Assembly (NCBI GenBank): GCA_963659105.1
Contig: CAVKTQ010000003.1
Coordinates: 13,228-56,655 of the forward strand
Source of the DNA: Firmicutes bacterium CAG:238
Lineage (GTDB): Bacteria > Bacillota > Clostridia > Christensenellales > CAG-917
Reading direction: 5' to 3'
DNA length: 43,428 bases
Positions within the stretch are counted from its first letter, which is position 1. Each line of letters begins with the position of its first letter. Made by a program: the position numbers and the translations under genes. Below the pieces are notes generated by a model that did no database searches, was not told where the DNA came from, and worked only from the letters and a program-made list of their open reading frames with translations. Positions 1,132 through 33,891 of this stretch are shown here, piece by piece.

Positions 1132-1665
1132 GCAAAAATCGTCGCTAAGGCAACGACAACACACAAGTGTGCGCATTGCCGAGAGCCTTGCTTGATTTAT
1201 TGCTCTGCTAACCGCGCAAGCCCTCTTTGCTCTCCCGAACAAGACGGACAAAGAATCCAGCCACAATTCCGCACGAGTGCTTGCTTGGTGAAGCGTGCTT
1301 TGCACACATATGGTGAATTTGAATTATCCATATGTCATTCAGAGCGTAGCGTAGGAATCCAGCCGTAAGCGCATTTCGCTCCGCTTGATTCTCACGGTCA
1401 CTGTGTTCCCTCAGAATGACGAGCGCAAAGAATTTGTGCTATCCGTTCAAGCAAGGACAAAAATCCTGCCGCAATTTCGCAAAATTATCTGCTTGGTGGG
1501 TGCGTGCTTTGCACGCAGTTGCGGAATATTTTAATATTCCATAACCCAAACGACGTTTGGATATCATCGTGCAGAATTGCACGATATCATCACAAAGTGA
1601 TATCATCGCCATAAGCGATATCATTCACTGCGTGAGGAAGGGGGAAAGCTTAAATTGAAGTTATA
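1132..1665. repeat. Mosaic repeat locus R1: L element (1132-1330), foldback F (1334-1420), 5'-truncated L (1421-1540), hairpin/linker array (1546-1635), T-like tail
   Basis: It starts immediately after the stop codon at 1129-1131. Long stretches align with 31810-32590, with the reverse complement of 19713-19922, and with 12463-12610. The ORFs called here are in different frames in different copies, so the region is non-coding. Confidence 0.9.
1334..1420. mobile_element. Foldback (MITE-like) element F, copy 1 (short variant)
   Basis: The termini GTCATTCAGAG ... CTCAGAATGAC are inverted repeats. It aligns with 19611-19709 apart from an internal deletion of about 12 bp. Confidence 0.75.
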
Positions 1666-5893: not shown

Positions 5894-6090
5894 AATTAAT
5901 AATTAACAATTAATAATTAATAATTGAGGGTGGGACACGCACACCCGATTGTGCCTGCGGCACAGTGATATTATCTTGCGACAGTGAAATGCACGCTGTG
6001 CGTGCGTGAAATTGTCCTTTCGGACAGTGAAATTTGCACTTCGTGCAAATGAAATTGCACCGTCGGTGCAGTTTTGGAATATTAAAATTC
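5894..6090. repeat. Mosaic repeat locus R2: T module (5894-5947), hairpin/linker array (5950-6070), degenerate hp palindrome
   Basis: An AATTAATAATTAA-rich stretch is followed by GAGGGTGGGACACGCACACCC. Then come the hairpins TGTGCCtgcGGCACA, GCACGCtgtGCGTGC, TGTCCtttcGGACA, TTGCACttcGTGCAA and TGCACCgtcGGTGCA, joined by GTGAAAT/GTGATAT linkers. Confidence 0.9.
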
Positions 6091-9640: not shown

Positions 9641-9822
9641 GAGAGTGCGACAAACTTAATTAAATTGGAAAAAGACCTATTACCTTGGTAACAGGTGCAT
9701 TTTTCGCAAAGCATCGCTTTTTCCAATTTGAGCATGTGGTTTGTCGCAAAATCAGCGAGATGCACTTGTTATATATTGCTTTCTTTGTATCGGGTGTGTT
9801 TCGTTCCCGATACTTTTTTTGG
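9641..9822 (+). promoter_or_regulatory. Structured 5' leader (or small RNA) ending in an intrinsic terminator just before the RBS
   Basis: Nested helices: TGCGACAAAC (9646-9655) pairs with GTTTGTCGCA (9739-9748); TTGGAAAAAG (9665-9674) pairs with CTTTTTCCAA (9717-9726); inner hairpin at 9675-9696. Then the terminator GTATCGGG...CCCGATAC plus T7 (9787-9820), immediately followed by GGAGGAG and the ATG at 9835. Confidence 0.5.
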
Positions 9823-9834
9823 AGGAGAATAAAA

Positions 9835-12051
9835 ATGAAAAGAAAATTTGCGATTACGATTGCATTTTTGCTTGTCGCATTGCTTGCGGCAACACTTGTC
9901 GCTTGCGACATCGATGACGGCAAAACCCCAAACGGAATTGTTTTAAGGGAAGATATGACGTTGGGCGAACTGATAGAAATGGCAAGTGATGTCAAAAGTG
10001 CAACAGTAAAGGCATACGACGAAAGCAATCAACTGATATATGAAAAATATTACAGCGAAAATGCCTGTATATGTTATTTTTATGAAGATAAAGATTTGTA
10101 TTCGTCGCTCGATATGCACGACACTCAGGGGTGGATATTGGACGGATCATTACTCTATCAATTTTACAAAGATGGCGATGATACAAAAATGGCTGTCGTC
10201 GATTATGATGGTTATGATTATGGTTTTTTCGCCATATCTTGTGCCGAAAGCATTTTGGAATGCATCACCGGCGGCAACAGTACAATAGAAAATAACACAA
10301 TTGTTTTTACATCTGTTTTTATATTAGGGTACACTTATATCCCTACTATTGTTTATTCGAACTTAAATAGTACAGAATTTGCACTTCCGAAAGAGTTTGC
10401 AAATTGTAAAGAAGAAGCCGAAACACGTCCTATGCTTGAATATGAGACAACGCCTTTTGAAAACGACGATACAAAATGTAAAATAACAAAAATTAATTGC
10501 AACGACAATTATGAGCTTTTGAAATCAATCGATATCGTTATTCCAAAAACCATTGATGGAAAAACCATCACTGAAATCGGTGAAAATGTGTTTGGATGGG
10601 GCAGTTATTCACGTACTAATGTCAATGTGATAATTCCCGATAGTGTTACAAACATCGGTGATGATGCTTTTTGTTGGTGTCTCGGGCTTTCAAACGTCAC
10701 AATCAGCAACAGTGTGACGAACATCGGCGAATCTGCTTTCGAGAATTGCAGCGGTTTGACGAGCATAACAATCCCAAACAGCGTGACGAACATCGGCAAT
10801 TATGCTTTCTCTGGTTGCAGAAGTTTGACGAGCGTAACAATCGGCAACGGTGTGACGAGCATTGGCAAAAATGTATTTTCCGGTTGTGAGGGTTTAACGA
10901 GCGTCACAATTCCCGAGAGCGTTACGAGCATCGGTGATGATGCTTTTAGTGGGTGTATCGCATTTACAGATATTACGATTCCAAATAGTGTGACTAGCAT
11001 TGGAAATTATGCCTTTTATCATTGCAATGGATTAGTGTATATTGATATTCCGAACAGTGTGACGAGTATAGGCGAGCATGCTTTTGAACGTTGCGAGGGA
11101 TTGTCCGGCGTGACGATTCCCGAGAGTGTTACAAAAATCGGAGACTATGCCTTTTGTAAATGCGATCAATTGGCAAGTGTTACGGTACCAACCGGTGTGA
11201 CGAGTATAGGCGCAGGCGCCGTTTCTGATTGTGCAAAACTGACAACTGTAAACTGGTATGCAACCGCATGTACAACGACGCAATCTGTCTTTTACGATTG
11301 TTTGAACCTAACCGAGTTGAATATAGGCGATAATGTAACAACAATCCCTGCTTATGCCTTTCGTGGTTGTGATGGACTGACAAGTTTAACAATTCCGAAC
11401 AGTGTGACGAGTATAGGAAATGACGCCTTTGTTGGTTGTCGGCGGCTTATTGAAGTGTACAACAAATCATCACTAGATATGGAAGAAAACAGTTTGAGGA
11501 ACTACGGCTTAGATTATATATTGAACGTCTATACGGAAGAAGGCGGAAGTAAACTATCTGTTGATAAAGATGGCTATGTGATATACACAGACGAAGGGAC
11601 GAAGAGCCTTGTTGCATATCACGGAACAGATACGGACATTGTTTTGCCAAGCGGAATCACTACAATTAATCAATACGCCTTCATATATAATGACGGAATT
11701 GCCAGCATCGTAATTCCCGATAGTGTTACAAACATCGGCGATGATGCTTTTTGTTGGTGTCTCGGGCTTTCAAACGTCACAATCGGCAACGGTGTGACGA
11801 GCATTGGCAAAAATGTATTTTCCGGTTGTGAGGGTTTAACGAGCGTCACAATTCCCGAGAGCGTTACGAGCATCGGTGATGATGCTTTTGAGAGGTGCTT
11901 CGAATTAGAAACAATATATTTTAATGGTACAGTGGAAGAATTCAATAAGATTTCCATCGGTGCAAGTGCTTTCGGTAGTACAAAAGCCAAGACCGTTATA
12001 TGCACAAATGGTACTGTAGATAAATACTTCAATGATAGCATCGGCGATTAA
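9835..12051 (+). CDS. Surface lipoprotein with BspA-type leucine-rich repeats (LRR_5-like)
   Basis: ATG 9835 follows GGAGGAG. Signal peptide plus lipobox (LLAATLVAC). More than 15 repeats of about 23 aa of the form IPnSVTsIGdyAFsgCxxLtsV. The in-frame extension back to 9685 lacks an RBS and I reject it. Confidence 0.85.
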   Translation: MKRKFAITIAFLLVALLAATLVACDIDDGKTPNGIVLREDMTLGELIEMASDVKSATVKAYDESNQLIYEKYYSENACICYFYEDKDLYSSLDMHDTQGWILDGSLLYQFYKDGDDTKMAVVDYDGYDYGFFAISCAESILECITGGNSTIENNTIVFTSVFILGYTYIPTIVYSNLNSTEFALPKEFANCKEEAETRPMLEYETTPFENDDTKCKITKINCNDNYELLKSIDIVIPKTIDGKTITEIGENVFGWGSYSRTNVNVIIPDSVTNIGDDAFCWCLGLSNVTISNSVTNIGESAFENCSGLTSITIPNSVTNIGNYAFSGCRSLTSVTIGNGVTSIGKNVFSGCEGLTSVTIPESVTSIGDDAFSGCIAFTDITIPNSVTSIGNYAFYHCNGLVYIDIPNSVTSIGEHAFERCEGLSGVTIPESVTKIGDYAFCKCDQLASVTVPTGVTSIGAGAVSDCAKLTTVNWYATACTTTQSVFYDCLNLTELNIGDNVTTIPAYAFRGCDGLTSLTIPNSVTSIGNDAFVGCRRLIEVYNKSSLDMEENSLRNYGLDYILNVYTEEGGSKLSVDKDGYVIYTDEGTKSLVAYHGTDTDIVLPSGITTINQYAFIYNDGIASIVIPDSVTNIGDDAFCWCLGLSNVTIGNGVTSIGKNVFSGCEGLTSVTIPESVTSIGDDAFERCFELETIYFNGTVEEFNKISIGASAFGSTKAKTVICTNGTVDKYFNDSIGD
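11711..11888 (+). repeat. Intragenic near-identical duplication inside the LRR gene
   Basis: 11711-11786 matches 10631-10706 with one mismatch. 11778-11888 matches 10838-10947 with no differences seen. The two source blocks are about 130 bp apart at the first site and fused at the second. Confidence 0.85.
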
Positions 12052-12350: not shown

Positions 12351-12362
12351 ATTAATTTGTAA

Positions 12363-12835
12363 GTGATATTGCACTTATGGTGCAGTGATATTGTCTTACG
12401 ACAGCGATATTGTTGCTTCGCAACGGTGATATTGCGACTTTGTCGCAGTTGCGGAATATTCAAATTTTCCGCTTGCGCACGAAGTGCGCTTCACAAAGCA
12501 GATAATTTGGCGAAACTGTGGCTTGAATCTTTATCCGTGCCTGAACTGATAGCGCAAATTCTCTGCGCGGTTAGTGATTGCGAGAACAAGTGCGGCTTTT
12601 GACAATCGCCCCAAAAGTTTACGTTTCTATTTAGGGGATTCCCACGCTTCGCTCTGAATGACAAAGTGGGCGATTGACGTTGCCACAACGTAGTTTGAGC
12701 AATGGCTCGCCGCTTTGCGGCTCGTGTTCCGTCTGCGAATGAGCAGATACCGTTTATAAGTAGGCTTCGAATTAGTTTTCGTTTCGGGTGTGGGCAGAGC
12801 CCACCCAAAATTATTCATTATTAATTATTAATTAA
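12363..12835. repeat. Mosaic repeat locus R3: hairpin/linker array plus hp (12363-12462), partial inverted L (12463-12610), half F element (12634-12662), T module (12784-12835)
   Basis: GTGATAT-linked hairpins TGCACTtatGGTGCA, TGTCttacGACA, GTTGCttcGCAAC and TGCGACtttGTCGCA. These are followed by GCGGAATATTCAAATTTTCCGC and by GCGCACgaaGTGCGC...AAGCAGATAATTTGGCGAAACTGTGGC, which match the other L copies. Confidence 0.9.
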
Positions 12836-13218: not shown

Positions 13219-14400
13219 TCACGACATTTTTCTGTCCACGTCGATGACGAAAAAGTATTTTACGGGGTCGTTTGCAAACTCTTGTTTCATAGCGTTTTTC
13301 ACGTCGTTGAGGCAAATTTTGCTGTCGTAGGGGATTACGACGTCGAAAATCATATTTGTGTGCGTTTGTCCGCTGACGATGCGAAAATCGTGCAACGAAA
13401 GCCCCTCGTCGAGGTTGGCAAGCGCGTTTTGAGCGCGAAGTTTGAGTTCGGCAAGTTTCTCGTTTTTGGTATCCACAGGGTCCATATGTATGGTGATTCT
13501 CACATGCATTTCGTTCCAAAAGTCGTGTTCGATGTTGTCTATGACGTCGTGGCTCTTGGTTATTTCAACGTCCTGCGGCACTTCGACGTGCGCAACGACA
13601 AAGCAATGATTCTCGCCGTAACTGTGCACGACAAGATCGTGAACGCCTATAACGCCGTCGTAGGAAAGTATTTTCGCCGTGATTTTGTCAACGAGTTCCT
13701 TGGGCGGCTTTTCGCCGAGAATAGGGGATATGGATTCCTTCACGAGAAGTATGCTCGACACGATGATAAACGCCGACACCGCGATACCCATTATGCCGTC
13801 CACGCTCACTTTGGGGCTGATTTTGTCGCCCGCAACGTCGATGACTATCGTTGATATTAAGACGGCGACGGTGGCGAGCACGTCGTTTCTGCTGTCCGCC
13901 GCAGAGGCTTTGAGCGCACCGCTGTTTATCGCTTTCGAGAAGTCGAGATATATGAGCATTTGCACGAGTTTCATTGCGATTGCCGCGCCCAAAACGACGT
14001 AGGTGTATACGCTTACGCTCACCGCTTCGGGCGTAATACACTTTTCGATGGACGATTTCAAAAGCAGTATTCCGATAAAAAGCACCGTGACCGACACGAG
14101 CAGAGAAGTTATGTATTCGTACCTTGCGTGACCGAACGGGTGATCCTTGTCGGGCGGCGTGGCGGAAAGTTTGAATCCCACGAGCGTGACGACGCTGCTT
14201 CCTGCGTCCGACAAGTTGTTGATTGCGTCCGCAACGATTGTTATGCTGTTGCCGATGATACCGACGATAAGTTTGAACACGCAAAGCAAGGCGTTGGATA
14301 TTATGCCGAACACGCCGGCGACAAGCCCGTAGCGGAAGCGCACTTTCGGGTCTTTGGTGTTTTGATAATCTTTTATAAGCAGTTTGCGAATGAATTTCAT
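13219..14400 (-). CDS. Cation diffusion facilitator (CDF) family metal efflux transporter
   Basis: 393 aa. A six-TM N-terminal domain contains ADAINNLSDAGSS and HPFGHARYE motifs. The cytoplasmic C-terminal domain contains HDLVVHSYG. Confidence 0.88.
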   Translation of the reverse strand: MKFIRKLLIKDYQNTKDPKVRFRYGLVAGVFGIISNALLCVFKLIVGIIGNSITIVADAINNLSDAGSSVVTLVGFKLSATPPDKDHPFGHARYEYITSLLVSVTVLFIGILLLKSSIEKCITPEAVSVSVYTYVVLGAAIAMKLVQMLIYLDFSKAINSGALKASAADSRNDVLATVAVLISTIVIDVAGDKISPKVSVDGIMGIAVSAFIIVSSILLVKESISPILGEKPPKELVDKITAKILSYDGVIGVHDLVVHSYGENHCFVVAHVEVPQDVEITKSHDVIDNIEHDFWNEMHVRITIHMDPVDTKNEKLAELKLRAQNALANLDEGLSLHDFRIVSGQTHTNMIFDVVIPYDSKICLNDVKNAMKQEFANDPVKYFFVIDVDRKMS

Positions 14401-14438
14401 ATGTTATATTCTCTCTCGGTTGTTATTACTAAAATATT

Positions 14439-14470
14439 CCCCGAAAATCTCGATGTCAAGATTTTCGGGG
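14439..14470 (-). terminator. Intrinsic terminator downstream of potD
   Basis: 12-bp stem CCCCGAAAATCT / AGATTTTCGGGG, followed on the minus strand by a T-rich tract. Confidence 0.75.
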
Positions 14471-14484
14471 AAGTATGTGTTTTT

Positions 14485-14545
14485 ATATTAATTAAGATAT
14501 TTTGGGGTGTGGGGTGAAACCCCGCCCGAAATTATTGATTATTAA
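14485..14545. repeat. T module copy overlapping the end of potD
   Basis: GGGGTGTGGGGTGAAACCCCGCCCGAA followed by ATTATTGATTATTAA. The AT-rich part encodes the last codons (LNNQ) and the stop codon of potD. Confidence 0.7.
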
Positions 14546-15998
14546 GTTTCTTTGTCTTTCTAGGTCGTACTTTAATTGCTTGCACTATGAAGTACACGCC
14601 GACGACAACAGCGATTGCGCCGACTATCGCCAAAAGGACGTACCAAAGATTTACGTCCACGCCGTCGCCCGATTTCGCTCTTTGCCACATATTGACCACG
14701 ACGTCGTTGCGCTTTCCGAAGTCGCGCATAACGCCCAAAGTGTCGTTGATGACGGGGTAGCGCCCCTCGTCGGCAAAGTATTCTTCGACGTCGTATTCGC
14801 AATCTTCAAGGTATGCGCAAACGTCCTCGTCGGCTTGAAGCAACGCCTTGTTGGTTGCCGAAGTGTAGCCGATTGCAACCGAGTTGCGCACGGAACTTAA
14901 CGGATTGCACATATAGTCGATAAACATCATTGCGGCGAGTTTGTTGTTGACGGACGTCGGTATGCACCAGCCGTCGTACCAAATGTTGCTCGCCACGTCG
15001 GGGACGTAGTAGCCGAGTTGATAGGCGCCCGTTTCCTCGTCGTAGCCGCCTTCCTCGATTGCCCAAAGCGCGTCGCCGCTCCACGCAAAGTCGGCGTAGA
15101 CGATTTCGTTTATCATATCGTCCTTGCCGAAATCAACCTCGTATCCCGAGATATGCTCGCGTTGCTCTGTAAGCACTTTTTCCGCTGCCGCAACCATTTC
15201 GTCGTCGGTGCAGTTGATGAGTTCTTGCACGGAATAGGACTTATATTTTTCGGGGAGGAGGTTGTATTCGTACATATAAAAGATTGCGGCGGCGTAGGTG
15301 TCGCGCACGCTGTCTTTCATAAGGATTTTGTTTTCGAGTTTCTCGTTTTTCTGAACGTTCCAAAGCACGCCCCAGCCGTATTGTTCGAGTTCTTCGAGGC
15401 TGACGACGGACGTGTTGTAGAGTATGCCGAGCGTGCCGCACATATAAGGAACCATATATTCTGTCATGTCATGGCTTGCGCCGTCTTGCGACTTTACGTC
15501 GTTGAACATGCTCGATATCACGTCCATAATATCGGGGTCGATGTTGCCCCAACCCGACCTTAAACTGCTCATATTGTCAAGTGAAATACCGTATTTGGTC
15601 AAATCATCCTGAATTTCGGCTTTTATGTCGTTGTGGTTGAGAAGGCAGTTTGCCGTGAGCAATTTTTCGATTGCGTATTCGCTCGGGCAAATCAAATCGA
15701 CGTTTGCGTCGCCTTTGAGCACCTTTGTCATCATCGTTTCGTTGGTGTCGAAAGTGGTGTAGGTAATAGAAAGCGCGCGCCCCGTTTTTTCTTTGTAGTA
15801 GTCGGCAAATTCGTCGAGCAAAGTCTTGCCCGTTTCCTCGTCGATTTCTGCGTCGATATAGTCTTCCCAGTTGTAGATGACAAGTTTGTCGCCGCCGCTT
15901 TCGCCCTTTGCGCCGTTGTTGCAGGCGGTGAGGACGGGAAGCAAAGTCGCACTCAAAACGAGGACGAGTACAATCAAGGTTGCAATGCGTTTTTTCAT
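14532..15998 (-). CDS. potD: Spermidine/putrescine ABC transporter substrate-binding lipoprotein with an extra C-terminal TM helix
   Basis: ATG 15998 follows AAGGAGG. Lipobox LLPVLTAC. PotD-like body (LVIYNWEDYID...). The C-terminus LWYVLLAIVGAIAVVVGVYFIVQAI plus a basic tail looks like a membrane anchor. The 700-aa ORF extension overlaps potC and I reject it. Confidence 0.85.
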   Translation of the reverse strand: MKKRIATLIVLVLVLSATLLPVLTACNNGAKGESGGDKLVIYNWEDYIDAEIDEETGKTLLDEFADYYKEKTGRALSITYTTFDTNETMMTKVLKGDANVDLICPSEYAIEKLLTANCLLNHNDIKAEIQDDLTKYGISLDNMSSLRSGWGNIDPDIMDVISSMFNDVKSQDGASHDMTEYMVPYMCGTLGILYNTSVVSLEELEQYGWGVLWNVQKNEKLENKILMKDSVRDTYAAAIFYMYEYNLLPEKYKSYSVQELINCTDDEMVAAAEKVLTEQREHISGYEVDFGKDDMINEIVYADFAWSGDALWAIEEGGYDEETGAYQLGYYVPDVASNIWYDGWCIPTSVNNKLAAMMFIDYMCNPLSSVRNSVAIGYTSATNKALLQADEDVCAYLEDCEYDVEEYFADEGRYPVINDTLGVMRDFGKRNDVVVNMWQRAKSGDGVDVNLWYVLLAIVGAIAVVVGVYFIVQAIKVRPRKTKKLNNQ

Positions 15999-16822: not shown

Positions 16823-17616
16823 AGCGACCTCCTCACAGCGTTGCTGTTGCGATTGAATTTGTTCATAACGAAGTTGGATATAAGCACGAACACGAGCATA
16901 ACGAGGCTCATTATCGAGCCCACGCCGTACATGCCTTGCTCGAAACTCAGTTGTATCGAATCGCCGAAAAGGAATATCTTTCCGTTCGAGAGCAGTTGCG
17001 AGATCGCATACGTCGAAATCGTGGGGATAAACACCATCGTGATTCCGCTGAATATGCCGCTCATAGAGAGGGGAAGCGTGGTTTTCAAAAAGACGGTCGC
17101 TTTGTCCGCGCCCAAGTCCTGCGCCGCTTCGATATAACTCTTGTCAATGCCAGAAATGGTGGTGTGCAAGGGAAGAATCATAAACGGCAGATAATTGTAC
17201 ACCATACCGAAAAGCACCGTACCCATACCCAGTTCCACGCCGAGCGCAATGAAGATAGCCTTCGTCGCGAGCGTGCGGATAAGGAAGTTTACGCCCATGG
17301 GAATGACGTACAAAAGCACGAGTATGCGTCCGCTCGACATCTTCGAGAGGAAGTAGGCGACGGGATAGCCTATAACGAGGCACAATACCGTCGTTATCAC
17401 GCCCACGAGCAGTGAATTGCCAAGCACCACGAGGCTTGATTTCGACGTAAAGAATGTCTTGAAGTTTTCAAGAGTCAGATTGTTGTCGCTGTCGAGAAAC
17501 GCGTTTACGAGGATAAGCACGAGCGGCGTCACCACGAACAGCAACAAGAAAAGGATGTAGGGGATCGAAAACACCTTTTTCGTCAATCTGAATTTTTTGC
17601 GAGAGGTGTTTTTCAC
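16816..17616 (-). CDS. potB: Spermidine/putrescine ABC transporter permease
   Basis: 266 aa permease with the EAA loop IEAAQDLGADKATVF. Translationally coupled to potA (ATGA overlap). Confidence 0.88.
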   Translation of the reverse strand: MKNTSRKKFRLTKKVFSIPYILFLLLFVVTPLVLILVNAFLDSDNNLTLENFKTFFTSKSSLVVLGNSLLVGVITTVLCLVIGYPVAYFLSKMSSGRILVLLYVIPMGVNFLIRTLATKAIFIALGVELGMGTVLFGMVYNYLPFMILPLHTTISGIDKSYIEAAQDLGADKATVFLKTTLPLSMSGIFSGITMVFIPTISTYAISQLLSNGKIFLFGDSIQLSFEQGMYGVGSIMSLVMLVFVLISNFVMNKFNRNSNAVRRSLW

Positions 17617-19238
17617 TCTTCATCCTCCTTTTCGTCGCTCGATTGCTCGGCCTCTTGCTGTTCGGCTTCGATTATGATTTCCTCCACCGCGTCGAATTTT
17701 TCGGGTTCTGTGAGGCGCGCCTCTTCGATTGCTTCCTGCTCCTCTTTTGTGAGGGTTTCGTCCTTGACGACGGTTTCAACGACCTGTTCTTCCTCGTCGC
17801 GTTGTTCGATAACGATCTTTTCGGGCGCGATCTTGATGCCTACGCGGTCGCCTTTGAGCCAATCGTCGTCGGTGTCGGCAAAGAAGATGTAGTGGTCGTC
17901 CGTCGAGAGTATGGCTTGATAGTAACTGCCCTTGTATATGGACGAAAGCACGGTTGCGCCGATCTGTCCGTCCTCTTCGTCGTCGGTGATTTCCACGTCG
18001 TCGAAGTCGACGAACACCTTGACGGGCGTTTCGACGGGAAGGTCGGTTTTGCACTCGAAGTCCGTTCCGCAAATCTCGACGAGGTTTTCGCCCGTGATGT
18101 AGGTGTCGATTTCGTTGATGATGCGAGTCTTGTGCATGATGTGAAGGTCAAACGGCTTGATGTAGATTCCCACCGTTTCGCCCACGTCGTAAGTGTCGGT
18201 GTCGTGCGCCACGATTTCGTTGCCGTTGGCAAGCAGGGTGATTTGATAGTGGTCGCCCTTGAACACGGACGAGATGACCTCCGCCGTGAGGATGGTGCGC
18301 TTGTCGTCTACCTTTTTGATTTTCACGTCCTCGGGACGAATGATAACGTCGATGGGTTCGTTGTGCTTGAATCCCTTGTCCACGCACTCGAAAACGGTGT
18401 CGCAAAACTCGACTTTGCAGTCTTCGAGCATAGTTCCCGAAAGAATGGTGCTTTCGCCGATGAAGTCCGCGACGAACGCGTTTGCAGGCTCGTCGTACAC
18501 CTTTTCGGGGGAAGCGATTTGCTGAATTTCGCCAAGACGCATAACCACGATTTTGTCGGACATCGTGAGCGCTTCTTCCTGATCGTGCGTGACGTAAATG
18601 AAGGTTATGCCCAGTCTTTTGTGCATATCCATAAGTTCGAGTTGCATATCCTTGCGCATTTTGAGGTCGAGTGCGCCCAAAGGCTCGTCGAGGAGCAGCA
18701 CTTCGGGTTCGTTGACGAGCGCGCGTGCGATTGCGACGCGTTGTTGTTGTCCGCCGCTGAGCGAGGATACGTTTCTGTGTCCGTAGTCTTCGAGGTCAAC
18801 CATTTTGAGAGCGTTGTTCACTTTCTCTTTGATTTCCGCTTTGGTGTACTTTCTGAAAAGTTGGATGGTTTCGCCTTTCTTGTTGACTTTTGTGCCGTTG
18901 GGAATAACTTTGAGTTTAAGCCCGAACGCGATGTTGTTAAAGACGTTCAAATGCGGGAAAAGCGCGTATTTTTGGAATACGGTATTTACGGGGCGAAGGT
19001 GGGGCGGAGTGTCCGTGATGTCCTTGCCGTTGAAAATGATTTTTCCGCTCGTGGGCATTTCAAAACCGGCAATCATACGAAGGGTCGTAGTTTTGCCGCA
19101 GCCGCTCGGACCGAGCAAAGTGACAAATTCGCCGCGCTTAATCGTAAGGCTGGCGTTTTTGACCACTTGTTTGCCGTCGTACTCTTTGTAGACGTTGCGA
19201 AGTTCGATGATGTTGTCAACAGGTGTTTTGTTTGTCAT
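17613..19238 (-). CDS. potA: Spermidine/putrescine ABC transporter ATPase with a duplicated C-terminal regulatory (TOBE-like) domain and an acidic tail
   Basis: ATG 19238 (MTNKTPVDNIIELRNV) with AAGGGG upstream. Walker A GPSGCGKTT, signature LSGGQQQRVAIARAL, Walker B LLLDEP. At 541 aa it is roughly 170 aa longer than a typical PotA. Confidence 0.9.
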   Translation of the reverse strand: MTNKTPVDNIIELRNVYKEYDGKQVVKNASLTIKRGEFVTLLGPSGCGKTTTLRMIAGFEMPTSGKIIFNGKDITDTPPHLRPVNTVFQKYALFPHLNVFNNIAFGLKLKVIPNGTKVNKKGETIQLFRKYTKAEIKEKVNNALKMVDLEDYGHRNVSSLSGGQQQRVAIARALVNEPEVLLLDEPLGALDLKMRKDMQLELMDMHKRLGITFIYVTHDQEEALTMSDKIVVMRLGEIQQIASPEKVYDEPANAFVADFIGESTILSGTMLEDCKVEFCDTVFECVDKGFKHNEPIDVIIRPEDVKIKKVDDKRTILTAEVISSVFKGDHYQITLLANGNEIVAHDTDTYDVGETVGIYIKPFDLHIMHKTRIINEIDTYITGENLVEICGTDFECKTDLPVETPVKVFVDFDDVEITDDEEDGQIGATVLSSIYKGSYYQAILSTDDHYIFFADTDDDWLKGDRVGIKIAPEKIVIEQRDEEEQVVETVVKDETLTKEEQEAIEEARLTEPEKFDAVEEIIIEAEQQEAEQSSDEKEDEE

Positions 19239-19317
19239 AGGTAGACCCCTTGTAATTGCACCTACGGTGCAGTTATATTGCGGCAATGCCGCAGTGATAT
19301 CGTTGCCGTGCAACGGT

Positions 19318-19581
19318 GATATCCTCGCAATGCTCGGGCGATATCCTCGCTATGTTCGGGCGATATCCTCGCTATGCTCGGGCGATATCCTCGCTATGTT
19401 CGGGCGATATCCTCGCTATGCTCGGGCGATATCCTCGCTATGTTCGGGCGATATCCTCGCTATGCTCGGGCGATATCCTCGCTATGTTCGGGCGATATCC
19501 TCGCTATGCTCGGGCGATATCCTCGCTATGTTCGGGCGATATCCTCGCTATGCTCGGGCGATATCCTCGCAGTGCGAGGAT
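19318..19581. repeat. Tandem repeat: 12 units of 22 bp (GATATCCTCGCtatgYTCGGGC) with C/T alternation, giving a 44-bp super-period
   Basis: Units start at 19318, 19340, 19362 ... 19560. Units 2-11 are identical apart from the alternating C/T. The last unit is a perfect hairpin, CCTCGCagtGCGAGG. Confidence 0.97.
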
Positions 19582-19610
19582 TGCGGATTATTCAAATCTG
19601 TTTTCCGCTT

Positions 19611-19709
19611 GTCATTCAGAGGAGCAACAGAGTTGCGACGTAGGAATCAAGGCGAAGCCGCATTTCGCTACGCTGGATTCTCACGGTCACTTTGTTCCCT
19701 CAGAATGAC
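19611..19709. mobile_element. Foldback (MITE-like) element F, copy 2 (full length, 99 bp)
   Basis: GTCATTCAGAGG...CCCTCAGAATGAC. It is near-identical to the reverse complement of 32136-32235. Confidence 0.8.
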
Positions 19710-19967
19710 ACATGGAAGATTTAAATCTTCCGCTCAACTGCGTGCGAAGCACGCTCTCACCAAACAGATAATCTTGCGAAACTGCGGCTTGATTATTTGT
19801 CCGTCTTGTTTTGATAGCAAAGATTCTCTGTGCGGTAGAAGCGCAATAAATCGAGTAAGGTTCTCGGCGATACGCAAATCTGCGTGTTGCCGTTGCCTCA
19901 GCGACGATTTTTGCGCAGTACGATTTCATCACGAAGTGATATCATCGCCAAAGGCGATATCATTTTA

Positions 19968-20501
19968 TTAAAATGTCGGTGGGGAAGCAACCCACAATAC
20001 GACCGCCTTTTCGTTCGTGCGATTTTCAAGACGGTGCGGCTTCGAGGATGTGAAGTAAAACACTTCGCCCTTTTTCACGCAGTAAGCCGCCTGCCCGATG
20101 TGAAGCCATATTCTGCCCGATATGACGTATCCGAATTCCTCGCCCTCGTGAGGCACGTCCTCTTCGAGATTGGTGTGCGGCTCTATGGTCACTCGTATGG
20201 GTTCCATCTCGTTCTTCTGCGCGTTGGGGACAAGCCATTCGATTTTGTGCGTGTCCGCAACCTTTTCGATAAACTCCGCTTCGGTGAAAACGACCTTTTC
20301 CTCCTTTTCGTCCTTGAAGAAGTCCGCAAACGTCGTTCCGAGCGCGTTGAGGATATCCTCCAAAGTTGTGATAGAGGGGGAAGTGAGTTCGTTTTCGAGT
20401 TGCGAAATGTAGCCTTTTGTCAATTCGCATCTGTCGGCGAGTTCCTCTTGCGTGAGGTTGTTTTGAAGCCTCAGTCTTTTGATTTTAGTGCCAAGTTCCA
20501 T
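19968..20501 (-). CDS. XRE-family HTH plus cupin-domain transcriptional regulator (PuuR-like)
   Basis: ATG 20501 follows GAGGGA. N-terminal HTH (IKRLRLQNNLTQEELADRCELTKGYISQLE). C-terminal cupin (HEGEEFGYVISGRIWLHIG). It sits upstream of potABCD on the same strand. Confidence 0.85.
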   Translation of the reverse strand: MELGTKIKRLRLQNNLTQEELADRCELTKGYISQLENELTSPSITTLEDILNALGTTFADFFKDEKEEKVVFTEAEFIEKVADTHKIEWLVPNAQKNEMEPIRVTIEPHTNLEEDVPHEGEEFGYVISGRIWLHIGQAAYCVKKGEVFYFTSSKPHRLENRTNEKAVVLWVASPPTF

Positions 20502-26982: not shown

Positions 26983-26984
26983 AA

Positions 26985-27060
26985 AGGTCGCTAGGGGTGC
27001 TGTAAAGCTGAGATGATACCCTCAAACTTGTGAGATAATCCTCGCGTAAGGAAGCAACAA
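26985..27060 (+). promoter_or_regulatory. TPP (THI-box) riboswitch aptamer
   Basis: CTAGGGGTGC...GCTGAGA...ACCC...ACTTGTGAGATAATCCTCGCGTAAGGAAG follows the conserved THI element pattern (GGGGTGC / CTGAGA / ACCC / GATAAT...GCGTAGGGAA). The downstream gene is ThiT-like. Confidence 0.8.
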
Positions 27061-27121
27061 AACGAAAGTTTAAGACATTGCCTTTTCTTTTCAAGTTCCC
27101 CATAGCAGGAGGACTTTTTTT

Positions 27122-28297
27122 ATGGATATCGAAACCTTATCCGACAAACTGCAATTCGTCGCGCTTTATCTTGCCGTCGCGCTCACAGCGGCGTTTATCG
27201 TCGTTGGTTTGCTCGTTCGGTTTTTCAAAAAGGAAAAATTCAACGACTTCAAAAAGTATGCCGTGGGCATAACGACGGGCTTTGCCGTGACTATGGTCGT
27301 GGTGTTTGCCTACGTCAAATTCCAGTGCAACATCGACGATATGCAGGCAAAACTCTTTTACCCCATACTCGCAACGCTCATAACCGTAGTCGCAGGGGCG
27401 ATTGCGATGCTCGTAAGTTCGCTTTTCAGCGACAAGGCGGTCAAGATTTCCTTTATCGTCACCGCCGTTTTGACGCTTGGTTGCTTTATAGCCACAATGG
27501 TGCTTATGGCGCAATACTACGGCGACATCGCAGAGTATTATCCCAAAGCGAATCTCGTCGGAATGATCGTGTCCGCCGTCGTGTTTATGGCGATTATGGT
27601 TGCGATGTGGTTTGTGGGCGACAAACGCAAGATGAGCGACACTCGCTCTATCGTGTACGGCGCAATCTCGATTGCGCTCTCGTTTGCCCTTTCCTATGCG
27701 AAACTTTTCAAACTTCCGCAGGGTGGTTCCGTGACGTTTGCAAGCCTCCTTCCGCTCATGATTTACTGCTGTATGTTCGGCACGAGAAGGGGACTTATCG
27801 TATGCGCGATTTACGGCGTTTTGCAAGCGTTGCAAGATCCGTACATCATTCACCCGATGCAATTTTTGCTCGACTATCCTCTCGCTTTCGGGCTTATCGG
27901 CGTCAGCGGAATATTTATGGAAAAGGGTGTGTTCAAGGACAAAAAAGTGGTTGCGTTCTTGCTCGGCGGCGTGCTTGCCGTTGTGTTGAGATATGCTTGC
28001 CACGTTTGCTCGGGCGTATTTGCGTTTGCAGACTACGCAGACCTTGACAAGTACGACACGGCAATCGCGTACAGCATGGCGTACAACTCGTTTGCGTTTG
28101 TGGATATGCTCATTGCGCTCGTCGCAGGAAGCACGTTGTTTGCTTCGAAATCGTTTTCCGCTCTCATGCAAAAGTCGAGCGACGTGAACAATGCGGCGGA
28201 AGTTAAAACCGAGCAACCGACAGACGACGAAGAAGATTTGGACGAGATAGACAAGCAAATTATTGAAAATCAAGAGAACAAAAACAGCAATCAATAA
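27122..28297 (+). CDS. ThiT-like thiamine transporter (ECF S-component-like C-terminal half) fused to an extra N-terminal multi-TM domain
   Basis: 391 aa. Residues ~180-345 (IVYGAISIALSFALS...GGSVTFASLLPLMIYCCMFGTRRG...YPLAFGLIG) resemble ThiT. The N-terminal ~170 aa add about 5 TM helices, and the C-terminal tail is acidic. Confidence 0.7.
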   Translation: MDIETLSDKLQFVALYLAVALTAAFIVVGLLVRFFKKEKFNDFKKYAVGITTGFAVTMVVVFAYVKFQCNIDDMQAKLFYPILATLITVVAGAIAMLVSSLFSDKAVKISFIVTAVLTLGCFIATMVLMAQYYGDIAEYYPKANLVGMIVSAVVFMAIMVAMWFVGDKRKMSDTRSIVYGAISIALSFALSYAKLFKLPQGGSVTFASLLPLMIYCCMFGTRRGLIVCAIYGVLQALQDPYIIHPMQFLLDYPLAFGLIGVSGIFMEKGVFKDKKVVAFLLGGVLAVVLRYACHVCSGVFAFADYADLDKYDTAIAYSMAYNSFAFVDMLIALVAGSTLFASKSFSALMQKSSDVNNAAEVKTEQPTDDEEDLDEIDKQIIENQENKNSNQ

Positions 28298-28313: not shown

Positions 28314-28880
28314 GTGCCTGCGGCACAATGATATTGCACTTCGTGCAGTTATATTGTGTCTGCGACACAGTAAGATTCTCGCTCTGCGAGAGTGATATTG
28401 CGGCGTTGCCGCAGTTGCGGAAGATTCAAATTTTCCATATGTCATTCTGAGGGAATGAAGTGACGGCGAGAATCAAGCGAAGCGAAATGCGGCTGTCGCC
28501 TTGATTGCCACGTTACAACGATATTGCTCCTCCACAGTGATTGTGCGCATTTAGCGCAAGCCTACGGCTTTAATTTGCACTTGTGCAAATACAATCACTC
28601 CAAAAATATCGTCGTTCGCAAACCCTTGCAAGCAAGTTTCCTCACTCGACATTGACGCAATGACGATAGGGGGGGACACCCACACTCGAACAGATATTCA
28701 AATATTCCTCAACCCAAACGAAGTTTGGATATCATCGTGCGATATGCACGATATCATCACAACGTGATATCATCGCCATAGGCGATATCATTTAGGTGAG
28801 GCTGGGGAAGCTTCAAATAAAATGCATCGAGGGCGGGACACCCGCGCCCGAATAAAACACCCGCACCGAATAAAACAAAT
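28314..28880. repeat. Mosaic repeat locus R5: hairpin/linker array plus hp (28314-28436), F (28441-28532), unique multi-hairpin segment (28533-28690), hp plus array (28691-28791), T-type module (28796-28880)
   Basis: Hairpins GTGCCtgcGGCAC, TGCACttcGTGCA, TGTGTCtgcGACACA, TCTCGCtctGCGAGA and TGCGGCgttGCCGCA joined by GTGATAT-like linkers. The second array is near-identical to 32443-32520 and 1546-1620. Confidence 0.9.
28441..28532. mobile_element. Foldback element F, copy 3 (inverted, distal terminus degenerate)
   Basis: GTCATTCTGAGGGAATGAAGTGAC... aligns with 32136-32228. The final CTGAATGAC terminus is missing. Confidence 0.7.
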
Positions 28881-31768: not shown

Positions 31769-32590
31769 TGCCTTAGGCACAATGAAATGCACGCAAGCGT
31801 GCGTGAAATTGCGCAAAAATCATCGCATAGGCAACGGCAACACGCAAGTGTGCGTATCGCCGAGAGCCTTGCTCGATTTATTGCGCAACTACCGCGCAGA
31901 GAATCTTTGCTATCAAAATAAGACGGATAAACAATCAAGCCGCAGTTTCGCAAGATTATCTGCTTGGTGAAGCGCACTTCGTGCGCAGTTGAGCGGAAGA
32001 TTTGAATATTCCATAACCCAAACGAAGTTTGGATATCATCGTGCAATATGCACGATATCATCACAGCGTGATATCATCGCCGCAGGCGATATCATTGCAC
32101 AGAGCGCAATAGCGGATAAATTGAATAATCCATATGTCATTCTGAGGGAACGGAGTTACCGTGAGAATCAAGCTTAGCGCAATGCGGTTGTCGCCTTGAT
32201 TCCTACGTCGCAACGATGTTGCTTCTCTGAATGACAAGCGCAAAAATCATCGCATTAGCAACGGCAACACGCAAGTTTGCGTATCGCCGAGAGCCGTGCT
32301 CTATTTATTGCGCTACTAACCGCGCAGAGAATTTGCGCTATCAGTTCAAGCACAAATAAAACCTCACGCCACAATTTCGCCAAATTATCTGCTTGGTGAA
32401 GCGCACTTCGTGCGCAGGATGAGGATTCAAATATTCCGCAACCCAAACGAAGTTTGGATATCATCGTGCAATATGCACGATATCATCACAACGTGATATC
32501 ACCGCCATAGGCGATATCATTTATGTGAGGATGGCGAATCTTCAAATAAAATACATCGAGGGCGGAACACCCGCACCCGAATAAATTATT
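31769..32590. repeat. Mosaic repeat locus R6 (most complete): mini-array, L (31810-32012), array (32018-32110), hp, F (32136-32235), L (32236-32440), array (32443-32520), T-type module (32521-32590)
   Basis: Two tandem L copies are visibly similar over about 200 nt. The arrays carry ATATCAT linkers. The module order largely parallels R1. Confidence 0.92.
32136..32235. mobile_element. Foldback element F, copy 4 (full length, inverted relative to copies 1 and 2)
   Basis: GTCATTCTGAGGGAACGG...GCTTCTCTGAATGAC, flanked by TCC-ATAT on the left and AAGCGCAAAAATC (start of L) on the right. Confidence 0.8.
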
Positions 32591-33733: not shown

Positions 33734-33781
33734 AAAATAGGCGGAATAGGGCATAGTTTTTGAGATAAAAACTATGGAAGA

Positions 33782-33891
33782 AACCGCAAAAAAACCGCAA
33801 AAAAACCGCAAAGAAACCGCAAAAAAACCGCAAAGAAACCGCAAAGAAACCGCAAAGAAACCGCAAAGAAACCGCAAAGAAACCGCAAAAA
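33782..33891. repeat. Tandem repeat: 10 units of 11 bp (AACCGCAAA[G/A]A)
   Basis: Units start at 33782, 33793 ... 33881. A-tracts recur every 11 bp. A 41-codon ORF (33774-33899) runs through the repeat. Confidence 0.97.

What the first reader, a model, noticed from the sequence alone, without database searches (positions are those of the whole stretch)
19318..19581. Recently expanded 22-bp tandem array (44-bp super-period) abutting the potA ribosome-binding site
One array unit, GATATCCTCGCtatgYTCGGGC, is repeated 11 times in a row, followed by a twelfth unit with a perfect stem. Apart from a strict C/T alternation the units are identical, so the real amplified unit is 44 bp (5 copies). The amplified unit is a degenerate hairpin (CCTCGC/YTCGGG), whereas the terminal unit is perfect (CCTCGCagtGCGAGG).

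The perfect identity implies a recent slippage or recombination expansion, so this is likely a length-variable locus. The array ends about 20 nt upstream of the potA start, with the first hairpin at 19257-19271, the RBS at 19247-19252 and the ATG at 19238. It therefore lies in whatever 5' UTR or intercistronic RNA potA has. A 22-bp direct repeat array also superficially resembles plasmid iterons.
Basis: partly seen in the sequence, partly recalled or inferred. Interest (0 to 1): 0.7.

Follow-up and report, generated by a model that had tools for sequence, protein, structure and literature searches.

The report
Expanded hairpin module of Gut-1 repeat
The 22-bp array is a real, strain-variable tandem expansion (1, 2, 3 or 11 copies) of one hairpin module of a "Gut-1"-type hairpin-train repeat lodged between a polyamine regulator gene and potA in an uncultured gut Christensenellales bacterium; it is an ordinary kind of variable repeat, but it shows the orphan Rfam motif Gut-1 to be a dispersed, modular repeat family.

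Summary
Positions 19318-19559 hold 11 head-to-tail 22-bp units with strict C/T alternation, followed by a perfect-hairpin unit at 19560-19581.

The array is not a stand-alone feature. The 22-nt register continues to the potA ribosome-binding site as three more units, each with its own perfect hairpin. On the + strand (antisense to potA) the whole train aligns unit for unit with other hairpin trains in the window, including a bona fide Rfam Gut-1 RNA hit.

In other strains and species the same gap scores above the Gut-1 gathering threshold (58-66 bits). In L007 that match includes the homolog of the amplified unit.

Copy number of the unit varies between assemblies:
- 1 in nine assemblies
- 2 in L007
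- 3 in L091, without alternation
- 11 in the window and in an independent MAG
- one short-read unitig breaks inside the array

More distant relatives have a 23-136-nt gap with no train.

The best reading is a VNTR made by slippage or unequal recombination inside a REP/BOX-like modular repeat that sits in the intercistronic region of a puuR-like/potABCD operon. Predicted access to the potA ribosome-binding site does not change with copy number. The iteron, CRISPR and potA-specific riboregulator readings are rejected. The function of the trains remains unknown.

The parts
19318..19559 (+). Tandem array: 11 units of 22 bp, GATATCCTCGCTATGYTCGGGC (5.5 x 44 bp, C/T alternating). This is an amplified, degenerate hairpin module (X-type unit) of a Gut-1-like train. 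The strand given is the Gut-1-sense strand, antisense to potA.
   Evidence: The homologous single unit sits in an above-threshold Gut-1 match in L007. Copy number is 1/2/3/11 across assemblies.
19560..19581 (+). Terminal unit (U1) with a perfect hairpin, ATCCTCGCA-G-TGCGAGGAT. On the potA-sense strand its 3' arm plus linker (GCGAGGATATC) is identical to the end of each amplified unit. This gives an 11-nt direct repeat at 22-nt spacing, a likely slippage seed.
   Evidence: (I9). Present in all strains with variable loops and one compensatory stem change in L007.
19252..19317 (+). Three divergent 22-nt units in the same register, each with its own perfect hairpin (19257-19271 TGCACC/GGTGCA; 19279-19293 TGCGGC/GCCGCA; 19301-19315 CGTTGC/GCAACG), joined by GTTATAT/GTGATAT linkers. 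This is the conserved potA-proximal part of the train.
   Evidence: Stems 0/34 and linkers 0/25 segregating sites across 12 alleles, against 17-31% at synonymous sites. Aligns to other Gut-1-like trains.
19583..19608 (+). AT-rich palindrome/hairpin GCGGATTATTCAAATCTGTTTTCCGC. This module ends every train of the family (consensus GCGGAAKATTYRAATMTTCC).
19611..19709 (.). Long imperfect hairpin, MITE-like module (GTCATTCAGAGG...CCTCAGAATGAC). It is present only in some alleles (window, L090, L091, L007) and is flanked by AT-rich palindromes on both sides.
   Evidence: (I2).
19714..19731 (.). Second AT-rich palindrome, GGAAGATTTAAATCTTCC.
   Evidence: (I11).
19902..19965 (-). Partial copy of the GATATC-linker (4-hairpin) subfamily of the same repeat family, immediately after the regulator stop codon. 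It is complete in L002, L005 and L007.
   Evidence: Gut-1 model 23.1 bits. The complete L007 copy scores 35.4 bits.
19587..19615 (-). Promoter-like match (ATGACA-17-AATAAT, 10/12) reading toward the array and potA, formed at the junction of two repeat modules. Consensus match only.
19236..19251 (-). potA start codon (19238-19236) and AAGGGG ribosome-binding site (19251-19246).
   Evidence: N-terminus MTNKTPVDNIIELRNV conserved in related species.
17613..19238 (-). potA-like polyamine ABC transporter ATPase (541 aa), followed by two permease genes and a potD/F-like binding-protein gene.
   Evidence: TIGR01187 potA 365 bits, above the 355.6 cut-off.
19968..20501 (-). HTH_3 + Cupin_2 regulator (PuuR-like), upstream of and co-oriented with potA.
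5982..6060 (+). Bona fide Rfam Gut-1 RNA match (66.4 bits) in the same window. It has the same architecture as the potA train.
28326..28403 (+). Gut-1-like 5-hairpin train (42.6 bits, E=3.5e-5). Its hairpin 4 (TCTCGC/GCGAGA) aligns with the position of the amplified unit.
12361..12437 (+). Gut-1-like train (41.6 bits, E=6.5e-5).
1556..1626 (-). Copy of the GATATC-linker 4-hairpin subfamily (Gut-1 model 32.1 bits). Further copies lie at 28713-28795, 32028-32097 (34.9 bits) and 32442-32525.

Best explanation
The array is a variable-number tandem repeat. It arose by amplification of one ~22-nt module (a 7-nt constant linker plus a short hairpin, here a degenerate one) inside a Gut-1-type hairpin train.

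Shown:
- The train is a member of a dispersed, modular, intergenic repeat family of an uncultured gut Christensenellales bacterium.
- This copy lies in the gap between a puuR-like regulator gene and potA, with its better-folding (Gut-1-sense) strand antisense to potA.
- More distant relatives have a short gap without a train.
- The number of units at this position is 1, 2, 3 or 11 in different assemblies.

Inferred:
- The element was inserted into an ancestral operon junction.
- Unit number changes by replication slippage or unequal recombination between the constant linkers.
- In the array lineage, the end of the unit became identical to the 3' arm plus linker of the neighbouring perfect hairpin (GCGAGGATATC). 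This created an 11-nt direct repeat at 22-nt spacing that seeded duplication.
- A C/T point change then arose in one copy, and the resulting 44-bp dimer was amplified in register to 5.5 copies.
- The array itself is probably neutral or only weakly modulatory for potABCD. It adds about 220 nt to the intercistronic RNA or 5' UTR, without predicted terminators and without a predicted change in access to the ribosome-binding site.
- The conserved flanking hairpins and linkers are under purifying selection. They probably act, like REP or BOX elements, as structured RNA or ssDNA modules whose precise role is unknown.
For: - Array anatomy.
- The 22-nt register continues as three units with different perfect hairpins.
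- Family context. GATATC is about 5-fold enriched and clustered. There are 8 hairpin trains in the window against about 0.1 in shuffles. 7.6% of the window is repeated mosaic.
- Link to Gut-1. The window holds one bona fide Gut-1 hit and four significant sub-threshold hits, each on the predicted strand. The potA train aligns unit for unit with them. Orthologous potA-gap trains score 58.2 bits (L007) and 65.7 and 59.8 bits (L012), above the 50-bit gathering score, all antisense to potA; L003 scores 36.4 bits, E=0.002. The L007 match contains the homolog of the amplified unit.
- Copy-number series and mosaic presence/absence. Gaps are 152, 232, 327, 518, 553 and 729 nt, with 1, 2, 3 or 11 units. 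L012 shows a four-unit block duplication.
- Lineage-specific insertion. L013-L022 have 23-136-nt gaps with no train.
- Constraint. Stems 0/34, linkers 0/25 and loops 3/9 segregating sites, against 17-31% at third codon positions. There is one compensatory stem change, and 66 hairpins with 38 distinct arms are all perfectly paired.
- Strand asymmetry through a conserved U.G wobble.
- No effect on predicted access to the ribosome-binding site (0.38, 0.40, 0.40).
- No minus-strand terminator-like site in the gap.
Against: - The window's own potA train and array get no Gut-1 hit at E<=10. Formal membership therefore rests on orthologous alleles and on the alignment.
- The copy number of 11 rests on assemblies of unknown read type. 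The supporting MAG is otherwise fragmented at repeats and is identical to the window over 5.8 kb around the array, so the two may not be fully independent.
- There are no expression data. I do not know which strand is transcribed, or whether the regulator and potA are co-transcribed in this species.
- Invariant stems and linkers could reflect concerted evolution or gene conversion among copies rather than selection.
- The slippage history (hybrid unit, 11-nt seed, dimer amplification) is inferred from a handful of alleles.
Confidence: 0.78

Rival explanations
1. The array is a contingency or tuning locus. The number of 22-nt units in the potA leader sets potABCD expression. This could work through leader length and stability, through the 12 SD-like GAGGA motifs per sense transcript acting as ribosome decoys or standby sites, or through the spacing between a promoter-like site at 19615-19587 and the ribosome-binding site.
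For: - The array lies in the only route from the regulator gene, or from the promoter-like site, to potA.
- Copy number differs between strains.
- Each sense-strand unit carries GAGGA (direct reading).
- The proximal train next to the ribosome-binding site is strongly conserved.
Against: - Predicted unpaired probability of the ribosome-binding site is the same for 1, 3 and 11 units, at 0.38-0.40.
- The amplified unit is the least conserved module.
- The element family is genome-wide and occurs in both orientations next to unrelated genes.
- Related species regulate the same operon without any train.
- No start codon follows the GAGGA motifs at a functional spacing.
Confidence: 0.12
2. The train, including the array, is expressed from the + strand as a Gut-1-type non-coding RNA antisense to the potA leader. 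The expansion would multiply linker-hairpin modules, for example binding sites of an RNA-binding protein (sponge valency), or CCUC motifs complementary to Shine-Dalgarno sequences.
For: - Weinberg et al. 2010 rated Gut-1 a certain RNA on the basis of covariation (PMC2864571).
- The + strand folds better through a conserved U.G wobble: -156 against -122 kcal/mol for the 11-unit allele, and 20/94 against 0/61 G.U pairs in L012.
- Terminator-like sites on the + strand lie downstream, at 19891-19906 and 19944-19958.
- The constant single-stranded linkers are conserved.
Against: - There is no convincing + strand promoter upstream of the train. The only match is a 9/12 site inside it.
- The amplified units are the degenerate ones: at best weak hairpins with two G.U pairs and a mismatch.
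- The family shows no consistent orientation relative to genes and no consistent promoter or terminator.
- There are no expression data.
Confidence: 0.08
3. The array is an assembly artefact. A loop in the assembly graph was traversed an arbitrary number of times, and the true structure has 2-3 units.
For: - A 242-bp array with a 44-bp period exceeds typical k-mers.
- One short-read unitig breaks inside it.
- The supporting MAG is fragmented at other repeats.
- L091 shows only 3 units.
Against: - Two assemblies of different contiguity (the 43-kb window and a 19-kb contig that differs at 21 sites) give exactly the same 11 units.
- The unitig that breaks in the array contains the T/A variant unit, which is absent from the 3-unit allele. 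The alternating array therefore exists in a third sample.
- The alleles with 1 or 2 units have different unit sequences, so they are not collapsed versions of this array.
Confidence: 0.07
4. The array is an iteron-like or operator array: double-stranded DNA binding sites, with GATATC every 22 bp, for a replication initiator or for the adjacent PuuR-like regulator.
For: - The direct repeats are 22 bp long, about two helical turns, with a palindromic hexamer.
- A regulator gene lies directly upstream.
Against: - The context is chromosomal housekeeping genes, with no rep gene and no plasmid or phage similarity.
- The same linker and hairpin modules occur at unrelated loci.
- Unit spacing elsewhere in the family varies from 16 to 23 nt, so helical phasing is not conserved.
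- Most strains with an identical regulator protein have a single unit that lacks GATATC.
- Relatives with the same operon lack the element.
Confidence: 0.03

Closest known systems
Rfam RF01706, Gut-1 RNA motif (Weinberg et al. 2010, PMC2864571)
   Same: - The architecture matches: tandem short hairpins joined by a constant GUGAAAU-type linker, whose ends extend each stem by an A-U and a U.G pair.
- The habitat matches: human gut.
- A bona fide hit lies in the same window (66.4 bits).
- The orthologous potA-gap trains in L007 and L012 score above the gathering threshold, and the L007 match includes the homolog of the amplified unit.
   Different: - The window's allele does not reach any Gut-1 score (no hit at E<=10). 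Its linkers are GTGATAT/GATATC, and its amplified unit is a broken hairpin.
- Gut-1 was described as a 3-hairpin sRNA gene of unknown organism. Here it appears as a multi-copy modular repeat with 3-11 hairpins. It occurs in both orientations, is fused to other repeat modules, shows presence/absence and unit-number polymorphism, and is assigned to Christensenellales.
BOX elements of Streptococcus pneumoniae (boxA-boxB(n)-boxC), from my own knowledge
   Same: Both are dispersed intergenic modular repeats that form stable hairpins, with a variable number of one internal module repeated in tandem. Both are often co-transcribed with neighbouring genes, and no dedicated transposase is known.
   Different: There is no sequence relationship (not tested with a model). 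The modules here are much shorter (16-22 nt against 45-59 nt), and each module is its own hairpin with a constant linker.
REP/BIME elements of Enterobacteria, especially BIME-2 with variable numbers of alternating Y/Z2 units (own knowledge; REP reviews PMC2817692 and PMC3184786 were listed but not read)
   Same: - Both are clustered short palindromic units in intergenic and intercistronic regions, combined with other motifs into mosaics.
- Unit number varies between strains.
- BIME-2 has a two-unit super-period, which resembles the 44-bp dimer here.
   Different: - REP units have a conserved stem sequence and alternate in orientation. Here the stems vary, the linkers are constant, and all units are direct.
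- No RAYT-like gene is seen in the window.
VNTR loci such as mycobacterial MIRU (own knowledge)
   Same: Both are intergenic or intercistronic tandem repeats of tens of bp whose copy number differs between strains, which makes them usable for typing.
   Different: There is no homology. Here the repeat is one module of a hairpin-train element.
Plasmid iterons
   Same: Both are direct repeats of about 22 bp in tandem.
   Different: There is no replicon context, no rep gene and no plasmid similarity. The units belong to a chromosomal dispersed family.

Membership tests
Rfam Gut-1 (RF01706) | Covariance-model score at or above the gathering threshold (50 bits) | tested here: inconclusive
   The window's potA train and array get no hit at E<=10. 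The orthologous train in the same gap scores 58.2 bits in L007 and 65.7 and 59.8 bits in L012, which pass. L003 scores 36.4 bits, E=0.002, which is sub-threshold.
Rfam Gut-1 (RF01706) | Three or more tandem hairpins joined by a constant GUGAAAU-like linker that extends the stems by A-U and U.G pairs | tested here: met
   Read on the + strand: hairpins at 19257-19271, 19279-19293, 19301-19315 and 19563-19581, with GTTATAT/GTGATAT linkers. The train aligns unit for unit with the bona fide Gut-1 copy. The G.U asymmetry is shown.
Rfam Gut-1 (RF01706) | Expressed as a stand-alone small RNA (the Rfam type is Gene; sRNA) | not testable with these tools
   No transcript data are available. Promoter and terminator scans give no consistent signals.
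VNTR / polymorphic tandem repeat | Head-to-tail copies whose number differs between strains | tested here: met
   11 units in the window and L090, 3 in L091, 2 in L007, and 1 in L001-L006 and L008-L010.
Dispersed intergenic mosaic repeats (REP/BIME/BOX-like) | Multiple intergenic copies per genome, hairpin-forming, combined with other repeat modules | tested here: met
   At least 9 trains in 43 kb, all intergenic and in both orientations. Mosaics lie at 1129-1655, 12364-12663, 19315-19965, 28329-28856 and 31810-32585.
REP/BIME sensu stricto | Conserved REP stem sequence, alternating unit orientation, and an associated RAYT transposase | tested here: not met
   The stems differ between units (38 distinct arms among 66 hairpins). 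The units are all direct. No transposase-like gene is found in the window, although the whole genome was not examined.
Plasmid iterons | Location in a replication origin next to a rep gene on a plasmid or phage replicon | tested here: not met
   The neighbouring genes are housekeeping genes (der, spoIVA, tmRNA, the pot operon and others). There is no rep gene and no similarity to plasmids or phages.
CRISPR array | Repeats separated by unique spacers, with cas genes nearby | tested here: not met
   The units are contiguous with no spacers. No cas genes are present. The only hit is a chance-level one to CRISPR-DR20, 16 bits, E=2.9.
potA-specific cis-regulatory leader or riboswitch | Conserved upstream of potA across species, in the sense orientation | tested here: not met
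   Species with 55-90% identical regulators have 23-136-nt gaps without a train. The favoured strand is antisense to potA. No Rfam cis-regulatory family hits the region.

The most novel reading that the evidence does not exclude
Gut-1-type hairpin trains would be a previously unrecognised class of self-expanding modular element in Christensenellales. Constant GUGAUAU linkers and freely varying hairpins would be recognised by a dedicated protein, as RNA (a sponge whose valency is tuned by adding or deleting modules) or as ssDNA (a RAYT-like propagating enzyme). On this reading the 11-unit potA allele is a high-valency variant that also acts in cis as an antisense or leader element on polyamine uptake.
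Probability: 0.1. Interest if true: 0.7.

Novelty: new member of a known kind. Interest (0 to 1): 0.4.

Why it matters
Taken alone, the array is an ordinary VNTR. It could serve as a strain marker, and it warns of an annotation and assembly pitfall: gene callers extend PotA into it, and short-read contigs break in it.

The wider value concerns Gut-1, an orphan Rfam motif with no known organism or function since 2010.
- It can now be placed in uncultured gut Christensenellales.
- It behaves as a dispersed, modular repeat that gains and loses whole units and occurs in both orientations, fused into mosaics with other modules. It does not behave like a single-copy sRNA gene.
- Its stems and linkers are nevertheless invariant between strains that are diverged at neutral sites.

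This reframes what experiments should look for. The candidates are a REP/BOX-like role in RNA stability or processing, or a binding partner for the linker-hairpin modules. The potA locus offers natural alleles with 1, 2, 3 and 11 modules for testing.

Tried and rejected
- Exact 541-aa PotA look-up: not on record. The reason is that gene callers use a TTG start inside the train, giving 566 aa. That version found only the same MAG and one unitig.
- SpoIVA look-up, to compare the bona fide Gut-1 copy across strains: not on record.
- Radical-SAM look-up: returned only one contig, which breaks inside the repeat mosaic.
- JGI metagenome scans for the unit, with 28-nt and 21-nt patterns: 0 hits.
- Viral contig scan for a generic two-linker train pattern: 0 hits.
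- Plasmid and phage blastn of 19240-19740: no match.
- Literature searches for Gut-1 beyond Weinberg 2010, and for repeats in Christensenellales: nothing relevant.
- Loop hypermutation. I first considered it because the differences between strains fall mainly in loops. I rejected it once synonymous-site divergence turned out to be comparable: loops 3/9 against third positions 17-31%.
- The AT-rich palindrome as a sigma-70 or Bacteroidetes-type promoter: inspection gave no convincing hexamers, apart from one 10/12 junction match at 19615-19587.
- The + strand ORFs across the array: rejected as coding. They exist only because the unit has no stop codon in any frame, and they are absent from other alleles.
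- I did not build my own covariance model, because the Rfam model already gave above-threshold hits at orthologous loci.

Full report
**1. The observation**

The array is real. Tandem Repeats Finder reports 19318-19570, period 22, 11.5 copies, score 464. Cutting the sequence in 22-nt steps gives 11 units GATATCCTCGCTATGYTCGGGC at 19318-19559. C and T alternate strictly at position 16, so the true period is 44 bp, present 5.5 times. The only other difference is an A at position 12 of the first unit. A twelfth unit (19560-19581) carries a perfect hairpin, ATCCTCGCA/TGCGAGGAT. The pattern occurs 11 times against 0 expected in shuffles.

The same 22-nt register continues leftwards for three more units (19252-19317). 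These units differ in sequence, but each contains its own perfect hairpin: TGCACC/GGTGCA, TGCGGC/GCCGCA and CGTTGC/GCAACG. These divergent units, not the array proper, abut the potA ribosome-binding site (AAGGGG, 19251-19246) and start codon (19238).

**2. Gene context**

All the relevant genes are on the minus strand. An HTH_3 + Cupin_2 regulator (19968-20501) has PuuR as its best NCBIfam match. A 729-nt gap follows. Then comes a potA-like ATPase, which passes the TIGR01187 potA cut-off, followed by two permease genes and a potD/F-like binding-protein gene.

The rest of the window is ordinary chromosome: der, spoIVA, a MATE transporter, tmRNA, TldD/PmbA and others. There is no rep gene, transposase or cas gene.

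The closest genomes are uncultured human-gut Clostridia of the Christensenellales.

**3. The array is one module of a dispersed hairpin-train family**

- The hexamer GATATC occurs 38 times against 7.6 expected. It is clustered at five other places with a recurring spacing.
- These clusters are near-identical copies of a 4-hairpin element whose hairpins are joined by GATATC.
- A scan for runs of short perfect hairpins found 8 trains in the window, against about 0.1 in shuffled sequence.
- One train coincides with a bona fide Rfam Gut-1 RNA hit (5982-6060, 66.4 bits). The Gut-1 consensus is itself three hairpins joined by a GUGAAAU linker.
- At a permissive threshold the Gut-1 model also finds 28326-28403 (42.6 bits), 12361-12437 (41.6 bits), and the GATATC copies at 32028-32097 and 1556-1626 on the predicted strand.
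- Read on the + strand, antisense to potA, the potA train aligns unit for unit with these elements. The alignment includes the terminal AT-rich palindrome GCGGAAKATTYRAATMTTCC.
- Repeated mosaic DNA makes up 7.6% of the window.

**4. Related sequences**

Nine assemblies encode an identical regulator protein. Their regulator-potA gaps are 152, 232, 326-327 or 518 nt. All share the potA-proximal train. In all of them the amplified unit is present once, as the diverged sequence GCACGAGCAAAGCGAGTATTTC, except L007, which has two units.

A look-up with PotB found the array lineage:
- L090 is a separate MAG contig of 19 kb with 21 mismatches to the window, all clustered about 4 kb away. It has the identical 11-unit array.
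- L091 has the same mosaic but only three units, all of the C type, with no alternation.
- L092 is a short-read unitig that breaks inside the array and contains the T-type unit.

The copy-number series at this position is therefore 1, 2, 3 and 11.

The Rfam Gut-1 model hits the orthologous trains above its 50-bit gathering score: L007 at 58.2 bits, and L012 at 65.7 and 59.8 bits. L003 scores 36.4 bits (E=0.002). Every hit is on the strand antisense to potA. The L007 match explicitly includes CCUCACUACGUUCGGG, the homolog of the amplified unit.

In species representative L012 the gap is an 11-hairpin train with an internal duplication of a four-unit block. L011 keeps only a remnant. Species whose regulators are 55-90% identical have 23-136-nt gaps with no train. 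From this I infer that the ancestral state is a tight regulator-potABCD operon junction, into which the element was inserted in this lineage.

**5. Constraint and strand**

The strains compared are not near-identical. Between 17% and 31% of third codon positions in the regulator gene and potA segregate. In the proximal train, 0 of 34 stem positions and 0 of 25 linker positions vary, while 3 of 9 loop positions do. L007 shows one compensatory stem change, CCTCGC/GCGAGG to CCACGC/GCGTGG.

Across the verified trains, 66 hairpins with 38 different arms are all perfectly paired. So the hairpins and linkers are maintained, either by selection or by concerted evolution, and the loops drift.

On the Gut-1-sense strand the linker extends each stem by an A-U and a conserved U.G pair. 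That strand therefore folds better in most trains tested, including every GTGAAAT/GTGATAT-linker train. In L012 the figures are -106 against -82 kcal/mol, with 20/94 against 0/61 G.U pairs. Three short trains in L013, L019 and L078 showed no such advantage.

The elements nevertheless occur in both orientations relative to flanking genes, about half each way in this window. That pattern is typical of REP, BOX or MITE-like repeats and not of a gene-specific regulator.

**6. How the array arose (inference)**

Unit number changes by whole units, through slippage or unequal recombination between the constant linkers.
- The common single unit looks like a hybrid of the two L007 units, which points to deletion of one period.
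- In the array lineage the end of the unit (GCGAGGATATC) is identical to the 3' arm plus linker of the neighbouring perfect hairpin. This gives an 11-nt direct repeat at 22-nt spacing, a classical duplication seed.
- L091 shows a three-unit stage without alternation. A C-to-T change in one unit, followed by amplification in the 44-bp register, explains the strict alternation.
- The absence of any other substitution in 242 nt argues that the expansion is recent, or that the array is kept homogeneous.

**7. Consequences**

No terminator-like site lies on the potA-sense strand of the gap. A promoter-like match (10/12) at 19615-19587 reads into the array, but it is only a consensus match.

Partition-function folding of the 1-, 3- and 11-unit leaders gives the same unpaired probability for the ribosome-binding site, 0.38-0.40. 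Each sense-strand unit carries an SD-like GAGGA, but no start codon follows it.

I therefore rate the array as near-neutral for potA. A tuning role is the main rival explanation.

**8. Comparison with known systems, and novelty**

The element is a member or close variant of Rfam Gut-1. It behaves like BOX or BIME-2 elements: modular, dispersed, and with a variable number of an internal unit.

It fails the tests for iterons, CRISPR arrays and a potA-specific leader.

The literature available here holds nothing on Gut-1 beyond its 2010 description as a human-gut-only RNA candidate of unknown organism and function.

The array itself is a new member of a known kind. The more interesting by-product concerns Gut-1, which can now be assigned to Christensenellales. 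It appears as a multi-copy, modular repeat that gains and loses units, rather than a single sRNA gene.

**9. Caveats**

- No reads or expression data could be examined.
- The copy number of 11 rests on two assemblies that may share ancestry.
- The window's own allele does not reach a Gut-1 score.
- The biological role of the trains remains unknown.

Noticed in passing
window 33778-33889: A second tandem array: the 11-bp unit AAGAAACCGCA repeated about 10 times (A/G variation at position 3). It lies just downstream of the radical-SAM/SPASM gene at 32612-33733.
   Followed up: no
window 19611-19709; also about 1405-1420(-), 28441-28540(+), 32136 onward (+), 12647-12662(-): A long imperfect hairpin of about 100 nt, MITE-like (GTCATTCTGAGGGAAC...GTTGCTCCTCTGAATGAC), with 4-5 copies in the window. 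In the potA gap it is present only in the window, L090, L091 and L007. It is flanked on both sides by the AT-rich palindrome, which may be its insertion target.
   Followed up: partly
window 5982-6060: A bona fide Rfam Gut-1 RNA (66.4 bits) sits between an aspartate aminotransferase gene and spoIVA. This places the orphan 'human gut only' motif in an uncultured Christensenellales genome.
   Followed up: yes
window 26983-27069 (+): A TPP riboswitch match just below the Rfam gathering score (49.7 against 54.3 bits), upstream of a thiT/YuaJ-like thiamine transporter gene at 27122-28297. It is probably genuine.
   Followed up: no
window 19239-19313 (-); L090, L092: Gene callers start PotA at TTG 19313, inside the hairpin train, giving 566 aa in GCA_963637195.1. 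The conserved start is ATG 19238, giving 541 aa. The + strand ORFs across the array (19195-19971, 19316-19708, 19374-19643) are artefacts of a unit with no stop codon in any frame.
   Followed up: yes
window 17613-18130 (-): PotA carries a C-terminal extension of about 170 aa beyond the TOBE domain, ending in a strongly acidic low-complexity tail. Strains differ in length, 536 against 541 aa.
   Followed up: no
L012 3635-3862: In a sister species the regulator-potA gap is an 11-hairpin Gut-1 train with AATATCAC linkers and a duplicated four-unit block (B-C-D-E). This is an independent example of expansion by whole modules.
   Followed up: partly
window 5894-5925 and 12809-12834: AT-rich 7-mer tandem repeats (AATTAAT x4.6 and AATTATT x3.7) lie in the same intergenic regions as the hairpin trains.
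   Followed up: no
window 13924-15263 compared with L090: All 21 differences between the window and the MAG contig L090 cluster in the potD-like and cation-efflux genes, while 5.8 kb including the array is identical. This suggests recombination or a mixed-strain consensus.
   Followed up: no
window 10699-10934: 69-bp tandem repeats inside the BspA-type leucine-rich-repeat protein gene at 9685-12051. These are coding repeats.
   Followed up: no
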